DNA from: a virus
Taxonomy: Duplodnaviria; Caudoviricetes
Reading direction: 5' to 3' (one strand)
IMG/VR virus record: IMGVR_UViG_3300029288_007050
Coordinates: 32,001 to 96,000 of that record
DNA length: 64,000 nt
Below are positions 41,500 through 57,477 of this stretch, piece by piece. The position numbers and the translations under genes were made by a program. The first letter of the stretch is position 1. Each line of letters begins with the position of its first letter. The notes beneath the pieces were generated by a model. It was not told the DNA's origin, searched no databases, and saw nothing but the letters and a program-made list of their open reading frames with translations.

Positions 41500-41572
41500 C
41501 TAACATAGCCTCTCTACCTCAGCTTCAGCATTTTCAGAGAGGCAGTAATGCTCAAACTGAGGAGTACGTTAG
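41500..41572 (-). ncRNA. pseudoknotted cis-RNA element A (unknown class)
   Basis: P1 CTAACGTA/TATGTTAG, P2 CCTCAGTTT/AAGCTGAGG, G.G, P3 AGCATT/AATGCT, loop GCCTCTCT pairs with AGAGAGGC. Confidence 0.7.
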
Positions 41573-41640
41573 GTAGTTGCTTAGCTGTTCGAACAGCTAA
41601 ACTACAACATGTGACGTCGTATAGACATCACTCATATAGT

Positions 41641-42120
41641 TTAGCTAGCACCAACCGTAACAGTCCAAGTGATTGTTAGAGTGTCAGAAGCACCTTTGTT
41701 GATGACAGAAAAGGTTGAAGCTGCAAGCATTGTACCAGCGACTGAAGAATTGAAAATACCTGCCTCTGTCAATGCTCCAGTAGCATCTCCAGCAGCCCAT
41801 GTCGCTTTATATACGACATCGTTGTCATCACCACCAGATTGCTGTTCTGGATAACCTCCAGACAAAGCGTTTCTGTCGATTTCATCCGTCAAAGTCGTGG
41901 AAGAAGTAGTGAAAGGAGTATCACCTGAACCTACAGCCATCCAACCCATTGCTGCTTCAGCTGGTGTTGCTGCTAATTGGTCAGCTACGTGTGCGTCACC
42001 GACAGCCATAAAAGTATTTTCTTTTTCAACGATCTGTTTTACGTTTCCGTCTTTGTCAAAAAGTTCAATCTTGATATAACCCTTCATTAACGTACCATCT
42101 TTTGTTTTTGTTTCAATCAT
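41641..42120 (-). CDS. virion structural protein
   Basis: MAVGSG...L..E..R, TEAGIFN, INKGASDTLTITWTVT, seen in phage fibre/collar-type proteins. Confidence 0.65.
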   Translation of the reverse strand: MIETKTKDGTLMKGYIKIELFDKDGNVKQIVEKENTFMAVGDAHVADQLAATPAEAAMGWMAVGSGDTPFTTSSTTLTDEIDRNALSGGYPEQQSGGDDNDVVYKATWAAGDATGALTEAGIFNSSVAGTMLAASTFSVINKGASDTLTITWTVTVGAS

Positions 42121-42124
42121 GTTT

Positions 42125-42328
42125 TTACTTGCTAGCTTCTTTGATCGGCACAAGAGTGTCTACTTCGATTTCTTTTTTCTCTTTCTTTACAGTATAACCA
42201 GGAATAGTGACATTGCCTTTTGCTGCTAAAAGAACTGCAGAAGAAGCATCTATTTCTAGAGTATCACCAGCTTTGCGCAAAGCACCATTCTTCATCATAG
42301 GTGTAATGAATTTAACTTTTACTCTCAT
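42125..42328 (-). CDS. small hypothetical protein
   Basis: 67 aa, G...AGDTLEI..A..L motif common near head genes. Confidence 0.55.
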   Translation of the reverse strand: MRVKVKFITPMMKNGALRKAGDTLEIDASSAVLLAAKGNVTIPGYTVKKEKKEIEVDTLVPIKEASK

Positions 42329-42381
42329 GTTTTTAAGAAGCTATTACTTTTTTTAATTATTCACCGGCTAAGTCGACCTCT

Positions 42382-43872
42382 TTAACCGTGCTTTTTTTCT
42401 TGATGTTTTTTCAATCGTCTCAAGCTGGTTGTAGTGTAATCACAGTATTTGCATTTCCTTATTATTTTTCCTTTTTCATTCTTTTTGTTTTCTTCATTTT
42501 CTGTCGTTTTTCTAGATTCGTCATTTTCTTTGATTTCTTCTGGTTTCTCTTCTTTTGTCTCTTCAACGGTTTGTTCTTTTACTTCTTCTTGTGTTTCTTC
42601 AGTATTTGTAGTTTCTCCAGTTTCTTCAGTATTTTCTTCTTTCTGTTCCTCTGCGTCCTGTTCTTTCGTTTCTTCCTCAGTCGTTTCTTCTTTTTCAGAA
42701 TCTTCAGTCTCGTTTTCTTCTTCAACTTCAGCTTTTTCAGTTTCAGTATCCTGATCTCCCTGTTCTTCTAATTCATCAAGTTCCTCTACAAAATCGTCTT
42801 CAACTTCTACTTTTTCTACGACTAACCTGGGATTGTTTTTAGCCCACTCAGGAACTTCAGCAAACAATTTGCTTTCACCCTGGATCATGTTTGGGTCTTG
42901 TCTGAAGTTGCTTGGTGACGTAACTTTGTACATTGTTTTCATATAGATTGGTTGCTTTTTAATTTCAACTTTCTCTTCTTTTTGTTTTTCGACTATTTTT
43001 TCTCCGAATACTTTTTTGCTCTTCGCGTATACTAGACAGTTTTCTAAGAATTCTTCAAACGTAGATGAAAAATTCCGAATTTTGTCAAACGCGCTTCGTT
43101 CAAAAAACATCGGATACAGAGATTTAGATGCTTTCATGCACCATACCTCGTCATTATCTATTTTACTCCATCTTTTGCGATCTGTAAAATAACCGTCGTT
43201 ATTTTTTCTTTGACCATAAGTATTGTCGATATGATATACACTCAGATCTTCTATTATTAAGAATTTTCCGATCCTTTTCGCGTGATCGTAGAGAATAGAA
43301 TCTATTCCCCATTTCTCAACAGTGTTTTCTAGTTCTTTACCTTCAAGTCTTTTGAACGTTCTGAACATTATATTCGGAAACATCATGCAACAGCCATATA
43401 TAATTGGCGCTTCGACCTTTATAGCATGACCTCCATAGAATTGAATCGGTGCACTATATCTATCAACGTTTATTATTCCTTCTGATCTCGGTGTTGCACC
43501 GCCTATTTTATCTGGATATTTAAAGTTTTCAATCATTTCAACAAACAAATTGCTGCTTAGTATTTCTATGTCACTGTCTAACTTTACATAGTAATCATAA
43601 TCTAAAGGTATGTATTTCAAATTCCAGTAAAAACTCTTATAGATACCCATTCTTTTATTGTTTATAAAAAGATTGAAACCATATTTCTTCTTAAGACCGA
43701 AAAGCATCTCTTCTGTTTCTTCATCAGAATGATCATCAAAGACAAAATGATCAAACTGGCATCCAGCTCTTTTATAAAGACTTTTAAAAGAACGTTCGAT
43801 ATATTCTGGTCGATTAAAAGTCAATGAAATCACACAGACCGTTGGTTGTTTTATTTCTTCAAATTTTTTCAT
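42382..43872 (-). CDS. GT2 glycosyltransferase fused to an acidic linker and a C2H2 zinc finger
   Basis: TFNR, DDHS, KLDSD; E-rich stretch; CKYC...HQEKKH. Confidence 0.8.
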   Translation of the reverse strand: MKKFEEIKQPTVCVISLTFNRPEYIERSFKSLYKRAGCQFDHFVFDDHSDEETEEMLFGLKKKYGFNLFINNKRMGIYKSFYWNLKYIPLDYDYYVKLDSDIEILSSNLFVEMIENFKYPDKIGGATPRSEGIINVDRYSAPIQFYGGHAIKVEAPIIYGCCMMFPNIMFRTFKRLEGKELENTVEKWGIDSILYDHAKRIGKFLIIEDLSVYHIDNTYGQRKNNDGYFTDRKRWSKIDNDEVWCMKASKSLYPMFFERSAFDKIRNFSSTFEEFLENCLVYAKSKKVFGEKIVEKQKEEKVEIKKQPIYMKTMYKVTSPSNFRQDPNMIQGESKLFAEVPEWAKNNPRLVVEKVEVEDDFVEELDELEEQGDQDTETEKAEVEEENETEDSEKEETTEEETKEQDAEEQKEENTEETGETTNTEETQEEVKEQTVEETKEEKPEEIKENDESRKTTENEENKKNEKGKIIRKCKYCDYTTTSLRRLKKHQEKKHG

Positions 43873-56409: not shown

Positions 56410-56442
56410 AGGACCTGCTTTAAAAGCATTTATTTTTATATT

Positions 56443-56703
56443 CTATTTTATGTAGATGTATGCTACAGCACCAGTTCCTGTCAACGTAACGTATATACCA
56501 GTGTTAAACATTTCTCCATACATAGAAGATTCAGTCGAATAATCTTTATCTGTCTTTGCTTCTCCTTTGTCAGTGCCTGATCCGTCTAGACTATCATTGA
56601 GAACGATTGTCGCAGCATCACTGTCTGGTACTAAAGTAAAACCTTGAACAGAGGTGTGACCAGTGAATGCCAGACCTGTAGCTGTCACTCTAATTGATCT
56701 CAT
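56443..56703 (-). CDS. small beta-rich protein, probably virion-associated
   Basis: G..FNTGIYVTLTG tail motif; near the capsid gene. Confidence 0.55.
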   Translation of the reverse strand: MRSIRVTATGLAFTGHTSVQGFTLVPDSDAATIVLNDSLDGSGTDKGEAKTDKDYSTESSMYGEMFNTGIYVTLTGTGAVAYIYIK

Positions 56704-56749
56704 AGTATTTTTATTTTTTCTTTTTTAATGTTTCGACCGCTTAAAAATT

Positions 56750-57391
56750 CTATACTTTTTTATCTTTTTCAACATGATATTTTTGAACTTGTTTCAAAAA
56801 GTCAGATTTACCAATGAGCGGAGCTTCTCCTATATGTTTCATCTCAGAATTAGGATCGACAAATATTTTAAATCCAGCTTTCTTTGCTTCTTGACAGAAT
56901 CTGAAATCAACACTCCAATGTACATTGTCTTTATCATAATTTGTATAGAACCAAGGGTATTTCATTTTTCGCAACACGTCCATCTTTATCAGAATACCAC
57001 CTGACCCGACGATGTCTACTTCTTGAAATACTTCGGGCAGAATCGGATAATACTTTTTGTCTTTCTGATCTTGACGATATACACATGGATGATAATCTGG
57101 TCTTCGTTTAAAAGCTAACCCGCCAACGATGTCTACATCATGCTCTAAAAGTTTTAGAGCAAAATCTGTTTCGAACGTCATATCATCATCGATCATCAGA
57201 AAATGAGTATAAGTAGAATCTTTCATTGCTTCCTGGACAAGATTATTTCGTGCAGTGTCTATCATCGTTTTAACCATCCATATCACTCTAGTATCTGGTA
57301 GAAGTTGTAAAGCCATCAGGCTGCTAGCAAATCGCCAATCAACCTGACCCATAGTCGGGATGCCTATAGCTAATTTCGTATTTTCCAACAT
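56750..57391 (-). CDS. GT2-like glycosyltransferase (paralog of 40762-41472)
   Basis: IGIPT, ARNNLV, MIDDDM, AFKR.P.Y.PC, PWF, D..FC, HIG. Confidence 0.8.
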   Translation of the reverse strand: MLENTKLAIGIPTMGQVDWRFASSLMALQLLPDTRVIWMVKTMIDTARNNLVQEAMKDSTYTHFLMIDDDMTFETDFALKLLEHDVDIVGGLAFKRRPDYHPCVYRQDQKDKKYYPILPEVFQEVDIVGSGGILIKMDVLRKMKYPWFYTNYDKDNVHWSVDFRFCQEAKKAGFKIFVDPNSEMKHIGEAPLIGKSDFLKQVQKYHVEKDKKV

Positions 57392-57405
57392 AAAATGTTT
57401 TTAGT

Positions 57406-57477
57406 ATAATCCCTTCCTTTCCACTTGCTCCGGCACTTTGGGAAAGGTTAGTGCCCGAACAAGATTTAAAGGATTAT
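57406..57477 (-). ncRNA. pseudoknotted cis-RNA element B (same architecture as A)
   Basis: P1 ATAATCCTTT/AAGGGATTAT, P2 CTTGTTC/GAGCAAG, G.G, P3 GGCACT/AGTGCC, loop CCTTTCC pairs with GGAAAGG. Confidence 0.7.

What the first reader, a model, noticed from the sequence alone, without database searches (positions are those of the whole stretch)
41500..57477. Two sequence-divergent copies of one pseudoknotted RNA architecture, each upstream of a paralogous glycosyltransferase
Seen: on the sense (-) strand, 41572-41500 and 57477-57406 share little primary sequence but fold the same way: closing helix P1 (8 vs 10 bp), short linker, P2 (9 vs 7 bp), a G.G mismatch, a 6-bp P3, and a loop whose pyrimidine run (GCCTCTCT / CCTTTCC, followed by NAA) pairs with a purine run (AGAGAGGC / GGAAAGG) lying exactly one U after P2 and directly before the 3' strand of P1. 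Both are followed within 2 nt by TAAAAACA and then the ATG of homologous IGIPT-type GT2 genes (41472, 57391). Both lie downstream of a virion structural gene, one of them the Mu gpT-like capsid gene. Inference: extensive compensatory change with conserved G.G, U and spacing points to a functional RNA. Candidates are a riboswitch or protein-bound translational switch tying glycosyltransferase synthesis to a metabolite or to capsid level, or an mRNA processing/exonuclease-blocking element that sets structural-to-enzyme stoichiometry. The topology resembles c-di-GMP-II riboswitches, but their conserved nucleotides and kink-turn are not visible.
Basis: partly seen in the sequence, partly recalled or inferred. 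Interest (0 to 1): 0.88.

Follow-up and report, generated by a model that had tools for sequence, protein, structure and literature searches.

The report
New folded RNA before phage glycosyltransferases
Two sugar-adding enzyme genes of this uncultured phage are each preceded by a copy of an uncatalogued folded RNA, kept by compensating mutations in at least 24 related phage sequences. Its tip loop matches a bulge at its own base that it probably cannot reach, so the two may pair between RNAs.

Summary
Both ~73-nt elements fold as described, on the strand that encodes the genes. They belong to one RNA family that matches nothing in Rfam 15.

A covariance model built from the two copies recovered 23 distinct full-length examples, plus one variant found by eye, in uncultured phage and metagenome contigs. 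Most sit 5-41 nt upstream of the same IGIPT-type glycosyltransferase (GT) gene.
- P1, P2 and P3 are 91% paired, and 21 of 23 pairs show changes on both sides.
- The loop/purine-run pairing is 97-99% paired and also covaries.

- The G.G mismatch is not conserved across the family.
- TAAAAACA is half of a separate small hairpin in A-type leaders.
- P2 and P3 form one continuous 14-16-layer rod, and only one U separates its base from the purine run. The drawn pseudoknot therefore cannot be a classical one while the rod is intact.

In genomes where one copy has lost its loop, that copy's purine bulge matches the loop of the other copy. Where both copies are complete, the two pairs are orthogonal.

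My best reading is a GT leader element whose loop-bulge pairing acts between elements or molecules. The main rival is a rod-to-knot switch within one RNA. Function is inferred, because no RNA data exist. The scan has not found this family on other DNA.

The parts
41500..41572 (-). Core element A (73 nt). Pieces: P1 41572-41565/41507-41500; linker CU; P2 41562-41554/41525-41517; G.G 41553/41526; P3 41552-41547/41532-41527.
   Evidence: (R1 90.7 bits)
41533..41546 (-). Apical loop of A. The pyrimidine run GCCUCUCU is at 41543-41536.
41508..41516 (-). U (41516) plus purine bulge AGAGAGGC (41515-41508) of A. It lies between the 3' strand of P2 and the 3' strand of P1.
   Evidence: duplex with own loop -16.2 kcal/mol
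41480..41496 (-). Hairpin P4 of A-type leaders (AAACA-GGUUUAA-UGUUU).
   Evidence: The stem covaries among relatives (AGCA/UGCU, AGUA/UACU, AGAC/GUCU). It is also present in L102 and L117, which lack the core.
41581..41600 (-). Hairpin P0, a 20-nt palindrome with centre UUCGAA, just upstream of core A.
   Evidence: The arms covary among A-type relatives, and U.G pairs indicate selection at the RNA level.
41611..41631 (-). Hairpin P-1 (8-bp stem, loop UAUAC) after the stop codon of the 170-aa gene.
   Evidence: L171 has the same loop with changed stem pairs.
40762..41472 (-). GT_A, an IGIPT-type glycosyltransferase of 236 aa.
41641..42153 (-). 170-aa protein upstream of A (phrog_5417, with a weak tail-fibre PHROG hit). 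Probably a virion protein.
57406..57477 (-). Core element B (72 nt). Pieces: P1 57477-57468/57415-57406; linker AAAU; P2 57463-57457/57430-57424; G.G 57456/57431; P3 57455-57450/57437-57432.
   Evidence: (87.6 bits)
57438..57449 (-). Apical loop of B. The pyrimidine run CCUUUCC is at 57447-57441.
57416..57423 (-). U (57423) plus purine bulge GGAAAGG (57422-57416) of B.
57491..57525 (-). Two further hairpins of B-type leaders: H1 (57525-57510) and H2 (57509-57491, GGGAGU...ACUCUC). The linker UAAAGCAAUGAGG follows them.
   Evidence: They are conserved, with changed stems, in L004, L200, L195, L201, L090 and L091.
56750..57391 (-). GT_B, the paralogous IGIPT-type glycosyltransferase of 213 aa. 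It is the first gene of the ~17-kb glycan cluster.
57552..58490 (-). Mu-gpT-type major capsid gene upstream of B.
   Evidence: PF10124, E = 4.4e-62

Best explanation
Both elements are members of one uncatalogued family of structured RNAs. The family is encoded on the sense strand in the leader of an IGIPT-type glycosyltransferase gene, in an uncultured phage group with Mu-gpT-type capsids.

Shown: each RNA is a hairpin closed by P1, whose P2-P3 'rod' is 14-16 stacked layers long. The rod carries two single-stranded patches that are Watson-Crick complementary and covary. One is a 7-8-nt pyrimidine run in the apical loop. The other is a purine bulge at the base of the rod, one U after P2 and abutting P1.

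Inferred from helix geometry: within one intact rod the two patches lie about 40 A apart and cannot form a classical pseudoknot.

Mechanism I commit to (inference): the loop-bulge pairing is a 'kissing' contact made between elements or between RNA molecules. On binding, it turns the P1/P2 junction into a three-way junction. This links or masks GT leaders and so tunes how much GT is made from the late virion transcript, next to the very abundant structural protein encoded upstream.

The regulatory outcome, whether translation or stability, is not shown.
For: Family and structure:
- There are 23 distinct full-length hits at E = 1e-21 to 2e-4, plus the variant L202.
- P1/P2/P3 are 91% paired, against 39-50% when partners are slid. 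21 of 23 pairs change on both sides, and 0 of 500 shuffles reach the observed values.
- Many G.U pairs, and no comparable hit on the opposite strand, fix the RNA strand.

Loop-bulge pairing:
- It is 99% paired in B-type and 97% in A-type, against 42-68% when slid. Double changes occur at pairing positions 7 and 8 in both types and at position 1 in A-type, and positions 1 and 4 differ between the two types.
- L202 has GGAAUAA/UUAUUCC, a transversion covariation.
- The duplex energy is -9 to -17 kcal/mol in all 23.

Link to the GT gene:
- The element lies 5-41 nt upstream of the GT start in most examples. It stays with the GT when another gene is inserted between capsid and element (L207).
- Both paralogues carry it despite different upstream genes.

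Pairing between elements:
- In three genomes or samples with two complete copies the pairs are orthogonal: self -10.7 to -16.2, cross -4.3 to -8.0 kcal/mol.
- In four genomes where one copy is a short form without the loop, its bulge has switched type and matches the loop of the other copy at -12.9 to -15.6 kcal/mol, ranking 1, 3, 4 and 6 of 23.
- A rod-only copy (L340) has lost loop run and bulge together.

Precedent: manA is another phage-borne 5'-UTR motif near sugar genes (PMC2864571). It assembles through intermolecular kissing loops (bioRxiv 10.64898/2026.07.01.735769).
Against: - No RNA data exist for these phages, so transcription, RNA ends and any pairing are unobserved.
- The steric argument is geometry by hand, not a 3D model.
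- The short forms may represent only about two independent lineages, so the type-switch evidence is thin. A-type loops also resemble one another, so the cognate partner is not always the best-ranked loop.
- The loop flanks (2-3 nt on the 5' side, 3 nt on the 3' side) and the near-equal strength of P2 and the loop-bulge helix also fit a switch within one RNA.
- In L098 the purine run pairs with a downstream pyrimidine run as a plain local hairpin, which shows that pairing in cis is sometimes the solution.
- In L200 another ORF sits between the element and the next gene.
Confidence: 0.4

Rival explanations
1. A two-state switch within one RNA. The default state is the rod (P1+P2+P3). In the alternative state P2 opens, and P3 plus the loop-bulge helix form a classical H-type pseudoknot stacked on P1, with the freed P2 strands acting as the long loops. 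A protein, for example the GT itself or the upstream structural protein, or a small ligand, would stabilise one state and set GT expression. The E. coli rpsO/S15 operator toggles between hairpin and pseudoknot in this way.
For: - All four helices covary.
- The loop design fits H-type rules when stem 1 is P3: 2-3 nt would cross a 7-8-bp stem 2, and 9-11 nt would cross the 6-bp P3.
- The loop-bulge duplex averages -12.0 kcal/mol against -8.8 for P2, so the exchange is energetically plausible.
- The bulge abuts the 3' strand of P1, which would allow coaxial stacking.
Against: - The P2 strands are not conserved in sequence between the types, so they cannot form a common ligand pocket.
- During transcription the rod would form before the bulge is made.
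- This model does not explain why short-form bulges match the other copy's loop, or why complete pairs are orthogonal.
- The start codon is 5-41 nt away and is not part of either state.
Confidence: 0.3
2. An RNA processing or stability signal. The interrupted ~24-bp P1-P2-P3 helix with its asymmetric internal loop is cut by an RNase III-type enzyme, like the T7 R1.1-type sites, or it blocks exonucleases. This would uncouple the abundant capsid or fibre message from the GT message and set their ratio.
For: - Position: it lies between a highly expressed virion gene and an enzyme gene.
- It is a long interrupted helix, flanked by further stable hairpins (P-1, P0, P4; H1, H2).
- Relatives that lack the element have a U-tract terminator plus a TAnnTTTG-type promoter at the same place, so this junction is an expression boundary.
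- A rod-only copy without loop run or bulge is still maintained.
- An unchecked first-stage note reports stem-clamped gene cassettes elsewhere in this genome.
Against: - It does not explain the covarying loop-bulge complementarity.
- It does not explain why the element follows the GT rather than the upstream gene.
- No cleavage data exist.
Confidence: 0.12
3. A metabolite-sensing riboswitch, for example for a nucleotide sugar or a cyclic dinucleotide.
For: - It lies in a 5' leader and is consistently linked to one enzyme family.
- It contains a pseudoknot-like element.
- manA and wcaG are precedents for candidate phage riboswitches near sugar genes (PMC2864571).
Against: - No riboswitch family matches, even at E <= 10.
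- Almost all conserved nucleotides are base-paired, and the junctions are short and variable.
- There is no terminator or start-codon-masking platform, and the spacing to the ATG is variable.
- Short and rod-only forms exist at the same position.
Confidence: 0.08
4. The purine bulge is a Shine-Dalgarno-like site that docks the 3' tail of 16S rRNA, and the loop is its mimic and competitor.
For: - The usual bulge consensus RGARAGR could pair with CCUUUCU, the 16S 3' end in many bacteria (own knowledge).
- No other gene of these phages has a purine-rich sequence upstream.
Against: - The bulge lies about 15-50 nt from the ATG, with variable spacing.
- L202 has GGAAUAA/UUAUUCC, which keeps the loop-bulge pairing but not the rRNA complementarity.
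- The host evidently does not use Shine-Dalgarno sites.
- The phage record encodes no bS21.
Confidence: 0.04

Closest known systems
   Same: A small phage RNA carries a hairpin loop and a bulge or internal loop that are complementary and covary across relatives with little sequence identity. They were first drawn as an intramolecular pseudoknot but pair between molecules.
   Different: pRNA is a free-standing RNA of phi29-like phages that forms part of the packaging motor, and its pairing is 4 bp. Here the element is embedded in an mRNA leader before a GT gene, the pairing is 7-8 bp, and intermolecular pairing is inferred rather than shown.
manA and wcaG RNA motifs (Weinberg et al. 2010, PMC2864571; manA assemblies, bioRxiv 10.64898/2026.07.01.735769)
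   Same: These are structured RNAs carried by phages in presumed 5' UTRs of sugar or exopolysaccharide-related genes. manA turned out to self-assemble through intermolecular kissing loops.
   Different: There is no covariance-model match. The fold is different (a single rod rather than a multi-stem junction), as are the phage group (landfill and groundwater, not marine cyanophage) and the downstream gene family.
E. coli rpsO (S15) operator and T4 gene 32 leader pseudoknot (own knowledge)
   Same: These are leader RNAs in which a hairpin loop pairs with a downstream strand. The rpsO operator alternates between hairpin and pseudoknot forms, and a protein picks one.
   Different: Those operators include the ribosome-binding site or start codon. 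This element ends 5-41 nt upstream of the ATG in a host without Shine-Dalgarno sites. Its loop 3 would be 1 nt if the rod stays intact.
c-di-GMP-II riboswitch
   Same: It has stacked helices closed by P1, with the apical loop pairing near the base of the structure.
   Different: There is no Rfam match at E <= 10. There is no kink-turn, only a variable 1x1 mismatch, and none of its conserved nucleotides are present.
Mu-gpT-DE motif (Rfam)
   Same: It lies downstream of a Mu-gpT-type capsid gene, as the B-type copies do.
   Different: There is no match to any Rfam model, including this one. The A-type copies follow a different gene, and the element tracks the downstream GT.
T7 R1.1-type RNase III processing hairpins (own knowledge)
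   Same: It is an interrupted helix of about 24 bp between phage genes, with an asymmetric internal loop whose longer side is the 3' side.
   Different: No cleavage is known here. Those sites have no complementarity between loop and internal loop.

Membership tests
c-di-GMP-II riboswitch | Match to the family covariance model | tested here: not met
   cmscan of the whole window at gathering score, and of both 321-nt regions at E <= 10, lists no riboswitch family.
c-di-GMP-II riboswitch | A kink-turn that folds the upper helix back so the loop reaches the base | tested here: not met
   Only a 1x1 mismatch separates P2 and P3. Its 3' partner is G, U, A or C, so it often forms a pair.
c-di-GMP-II riboswitch | Binds c-di-GMP | not testable with these tools
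   This needs in-line probing or ITC.
Mu-gpT-DE motif | Match to the family covariance model | tested here: not met
   No Rfam hit covers 57406-57552 at E <= 10.
Mu-gpT-DE motif | Located downstream of a Mu gpT capsid gene | tested here: inconclusive
   True for B-type copies and false for A-type copies. In L207 another gene separates capsid and element.
manA / wcaG motifs | Match to the family covariance models | tested here: not met
Classical H-type pseudoknot | Loop 3 long enough to cross stem 1 | tested here: not met
   With P2-P3 intact, stem 1 has 14-16 layers and the connector is a single U. The feature is met only if P2 opens, leaving P3 (6 bp) as stem 1 with a 9-11-nt loop 3.
Translational operator pseudoknots (rpsO, T4 gene 32) | The structure includes or abuts the ribosome-binding site or start codon | tested here: not met
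   The gap from the 3' strand of P1 to the ATG is 5-41 nt and variable. No Shine-Dalgarno site is present in any gene.
   Complementarity and covariation are shown. The steric exclusion is an inference from A-form helix geometry.
   Only indirect evidence exists. Short-form bulges match the partner's loop, and complete pairs are orthogonal. There is no physical test.
   The element lies inside an mRNA leader. No RNA-end data exist.
Intrinsic terminator | A G+C-rich hairpin followed by a U tract | tested here: not met
   No U tract follows P1 or the rod. Relatives L011, L093, L203 and L204 have a true U-tract terminator at this position instead of the element.
RNase III processing hairpin | About 20 bp or more of interrupted helix with an asymmetric internal loop | tested here: met
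   P1 (8-10 bp) plus the rod (14-16 layers), with 0-4 nt on the 5' side and 8-12 nt on the 3' side of the internal loop.
RNase III processing hairpin | Cleavage at the site | not testable with these tools
   No RNA runs hold this sequence.

The most novel reading that the evidence does not exclude
The loop-bulge module is a head-to-tail assembly interface. Copies of the leader, or a fragment released from it, would join into closed dimers, rings or chains. That would make it a natural RNA-RNA assembly embedded in phage late messages, comparable to pRNA rings or the manA cages. It could bring together the messages of the two GT paralogues and the virion proteins they probably modify.
Probability: 0.15. 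Interest if true: 0.85.

Novelty: new variant of a known kind. Interest (0 to 1): 0.62.

Why it matters
This adds a well-supported new family to the small set of structured RNAs known from uncultured phages. The family has at least 24 long-form members, all four helices covary, and it is absent from Rfam.

It is tied to a virion-glycosylation gene cluster, an area where regulation is essentially unknown.

Its unusual feature is a covarying pairing that the folded molecule apparently cannot make with itself. Together with the matching of 'orphan' bulges to the partner copy's loop, this makes it a compact 73-nt test case for a current question: how often are 'pseudoknots' predicted from covariation really contacts between RNA molecules? 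A gel-shift experiment with compensatory mutants could answer that directly.

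Tried and rejected
- **Rfam.** The whole window at gathering score found only a tRNA at 1812-1882. Both regions at E <= 10 gave only chance miRNA or lncRNA hits.
- **blastn of region A against cultured phages.** No match. tblastn with GT_B and with the capsid found no relative above 37% identity, so there is no cultured relative and no host.
- **RNA evidence.** No RNA holder is listed. Only landfill and groundwater DNA runs hold the stretch.
- **Alignment A2.** The MAFFT alignment with flanks misaligned P1 and was discarded in favour of A1.
- **Extra copies.** The 129-kb record holds only A and B.
- **Candidate effectors in the phage record.** It encodes no bS21 and no RRM protein.
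- **Shine-Dalgarno / 16S-tail idea.** Considered and down-weighted after L202.
- **L010 as a 'relocated' pyrimidine loop.** Rejected. That hairpin is H2, which is common to B-type leaders.
- **A switch using the GUAGUU repeat next to the ATG of GT_A.** Not conserved in L171 or L276.
- **DNA-level palindrome or chance similarity.** Rejected because of G.U pairs, strand-specific model hits and covariation.
- **Paper searches.** Two timed out.
- **Not used.** The third covariance-model slot, structure prediction and complex prediction. The last takes protein chains and ligands only, so it could not model this RNA.

Full report
**1. The observation**

The window is positions 32001-96000 of a 129-kb IMG/VR virus record.
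- P1 is 8 bp in A and 10 bp in B, followed by a short linker.
- P2 is 9 bp in A and 7 bp in B. A G.G mismatch and a 6-bp P3 follow.
- The 14-nt (A) and 12-nt (B) loops carry GCCUCUCU and CCUUUCC. These are complementary to AGAGAGGC and GGAAAGG.
- The purine run begins one U after P2 and runs straight into the 3' strand of P1.

ViennaRNA returns P1/P2/P3 as the minimum-free-energy fold, with z = -3.4 (A) and -4.3 (B).

The downstream ORFs (ATG at 41472 and 57391) are 33% identical (E = 2e-34). They hit glycosyltransferase PHROGs.

Upstream of B is a Mu-gpT-type capsid gene. Upstream of A is a 170-aa protein with only weak tail-fibre similarity.

The two copies are identical in 35 of 75 aligned columns, so they are divergent but not unrelated in sequence.

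**2. It is a family, and it is not in Rfam**

cmscan finds nothing at these places, either at gathering score or at E <= 10.

I built a covariance model from the two copies alone (R1). It found only A and B in the phage's own record.

I then fetched loci through three proteins: the GT, the capsid and the 170-aa protein. In these loci R1 and the rebuilt model R2 found 23 distinct full-length examples, at E = 1e-21 to 2e-4. All are on the coding strand.

The examples fall into two types:
- 14 B-type copies lie in the leader of the GT_B orthologue. In 13 the capsid gene is directly upstream; in L207 another gene lies between capsid and element.
- 9 A-type copies lie in the leader of the GT_A orthologue. 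In 8 the 170-aa gene is directly upstream; in L279 a different ORF precedes the element.

The two-copy layout recurs in several other contigs, for example Ga0210043_1001400 and IMGVR_UViG_3300005645_000007.

The sources are uncultured. They include landfill and groundwater metagenomes and small contigs binned into Patescibacteria and Woesearchaeota MAGs, which are probably mis-binned phage. No cultured relative exists.

**3. Covariation**

On the 23-row alignment A6, the nested helices are 91% paired, against 39-50% when partners are slid by 1-3 columns. 21 of 23 pairs show changes on both sides, and no shuffle out of 500 reaches the observed values. Frequent G.U pairs fix the transcribed strand.

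The loop/purine-run pairing was counted on MAFFT alignments of each type. These alignments were not fitted to any structure.
- It is 99% paired in B-type and 97% in A-type, against 42-68% when slid.
- Double changes occur at pairing positions 7 and 8 in both types and at position 1 in A-type.
- Positions 1 and 4 differ between the types: GGAAAG/CUUUCC against AGAGAG/CUCUCU, with GGAGAG/CUCUCC in three examples.
- A further B-position variant, L202, has GGAAUAA paired with UUAUUCC. This shows that the pairing itself is what is kept, not the purine content.

**4. Corrections to the anatomy**

(a) The G.G mismatch is not a family feature. The 5' G is usually kept, but its partner is G, U, A or C.

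(b) TAAAAACA is not a shared signal. In A-type leaders it is the 5' half of a small covarying hairpin, P4, just before the ATG. P4 persists even in relatives that lack the core.

(c) The leaders hold more conserved hairpins. P-1 and the palindromic P0 precede core A. H1, H2 and a conserved linker precede many B cores.

(d) No gene in this operon has a Shine-Dalgarno sequence, and the starts sit in A-rich contexts. Relatives that lack the element have a U-tract terminator followed by a TAnnTTTG-like box at the same junction. To my knowledge that is the Bacteroidota promoter type.

(e) The element tracks the GT.
- It lies 5-41 nt upstream of the GT start in most examples.
- In L207 a homing-endonuclease-like gene is inserted between capsid and element, yet the element still abuts the GT.
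- In L200 a NUMOD-like ORF follows the element.

**5. The steric problem**

P2 and P3 are separated only by a 1x1 mismatch that is often a pair. They therefore form one rod of 14-16 stacked layers, about 40 A long.

The purine run starts one nucleotide after the base of this rod, while the pyrimidine run sits in the loop at its tip. In a classical H-type pseudoknot the connector after stem 1 must span the whole of stem 1, and one nucleotide cannot span 14-16 bp (established helix geometry; my inference).

Only three arrangements allow the pairing:
- a severely strained side-by-side packing;
- opening of P2, which leaves P3 plus the loop-bulge helix as an ordinary knot stacked on P1;
- pairing between different elements or molecules.

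Since all four helices covary, all of them form at some time.

**6. Evidence on which solution applies**

Bimolecular duplex energies average -8.8 kcal/mol for P2 and -12.0 for the loop-bulge helix. An exchange within one RNA is therefore energetically conceivable.

The variant forms, however, point to pairing between elements.
- Short forms (L003, L010, L094, L169, L332) keep P1, a tetraloop-capped P2 and the purine bulge, but have no P3 or loop.
- Their bulges have switched to the type of the other position. In the four cases where the partner copy of the same genome is known, the bulge matches the partner's loop at -12.9 to -15.6 kcal/mol. The partner ranks 1, 3, 4 and 6 among 23 loops.
- In the three genomes or samples with two complete copies, self pairs are -10.7 to -16.2 and cross pairs only -4.3 to -8.0 kcal/mol.
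- One A copy (L340) keeps the rod but has lost loop run and bulge together.

This pattern is what pairing between elements predicts, and a purely internal switch does not predict it.

The sample is small, and the short forms may stem from few events. In L098 the purine run pairs with a downstream pyrimidine run as a simple hairpin, so I treat the internal switch as a strong rival.

**7. What it does**

Transcription and effect are not observed, because no RNA run holds this DNA.

From position and linkage, the element is a cis-encoded leader module of the GT gene. It lies inside a late virion transcript, at the boundary between a very abundant structural protein and a catalytic enzyme.

GT_B opens a ~17-kb glycan cluster containing GT2 and GT1 enzymes, methyltransferases, epimerases, LicD and a cytidylyltransferase.

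I commit, at about 0.4, to loop-bulge kissing between leaders or molecules as the mode of action. Its effect on GT output is inferred.

Rivals:
- an internal rod-to-knot switch read by a protein or ligand (0.3);
- a processing or stability signal (0.12);
- a metabolite riboswitch (0.08), disfavoured because nearly all conserved nucleotides are paired and there is no expression platform;
- a Shine-Dalgarno-like docking site (0.04), weakened by L202 and by the variable spacing.

**8. Comparison with known systems**

The element is not a member of c-di-GMP-II, Mu-gpT-DE, manA or wcaG. None of their models match, and no kink-turn is present.

It resembles manA and wcaG in setting: these are phage RNAs near sugar genes (PMC2864571), and manA is now reported to assemble through intermolecular kissing loops (bioRxiv 10.64898/2026.07.01.735769, read).

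Earlier notes of this scan describe other uncatalogued pseudoknot leaders in phages, but not this family on other DNA.

**9. Verdict**

This is a real, new RNA family of a known general kind, a structured phage mRNA leader. Its specific and testable oddity is the loop-bulge pairing that one folded molecule apparently cannot make with itself. Interest 0.62.

Noticed in passing
window 41472-41485 and 41598-41610 (- strand): A near-identical 13-14-nt direct repeat (AUGUUGUAGUUUA and AUGUUUGUAGUUUA) flanks core A. The downstream copy ends in the GT_A start codon. AACUAC at 41577-41572 could pair with GUAGUU in either copy. This is not conserved in L171 or L276.
   Followed up: partly
L285:1612-1801, L290:1606-1795, L326:1639-1831: Group I introns (RF00028, 66-76 bits) interrupt the 3' end of homologues of the 170-aa fibre-like gene in related phages.
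   Followed up: partly
L207:2219-2881 and L200:2326-2595: Homing-endonuclease-like ORFs with NUMOD-type repeats are inserted immediately before (L207) or after (L200) the RNA element. The capsid-GT junction seems to be an insertion hot spot.
   Followed up: no
L011, L093, L203, L204 (capsid-GT intergenic region): These relatives lack the element. They carry a canonical U-tract terminator followed by a TAnnTTTG-like box, which suggests a Bacteroidota-type promoter and host.
   Followed up: partly
window 40151-57391 (- strand): A ~17-kb glycan cluster lies between the capsid gene and a 2432-aa ORF. It encodes several GT2 and GT1 enzymes, at least six methyltransferases, UDP-GlcNAc 2-epimerase, an NAD-dependent epimerase/dehydratase, LicD, a cytidylyltransferase and MazG.
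   Followed up: partly
window 42382-43872 (- strand): A 496-aa GT2-family protein ends in a C2H2 zinc-finger-like motif (weak Pfam hits, residues 473-496).
   Followed up: no
window 32847-40145 (- strand): A 2432-aa ORF directly after the GT_A pair has a concanavalin/laminin-G-like domain. It is probably a large fibre or lectin-like virion protein.
   Followed up: no
L169-L172 (JANBVJ01, JANBVK01) and L170 (DUGB01): Close relatives of this phage's GT loci, including the RNA element, sit on small contigs binned into Patescibacteria and Woesearchaeota MAGs. This is probably mis-binned phage DNA, although a CPR host is not excluded.
   Followed up: no
L098:~140-230: This B-position leader has a rearranged layout. 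The purine run after the P2-like hairpin pairs with a pyrimidine run placed downstream, forming an ordinary 8-bp hairpin.
   Followed up: no
window 1812-1882 (+ strand): A tRNA gene (Rfam, 51.7 bits) on the strand opposite to the virion genes.
   Followed up: no
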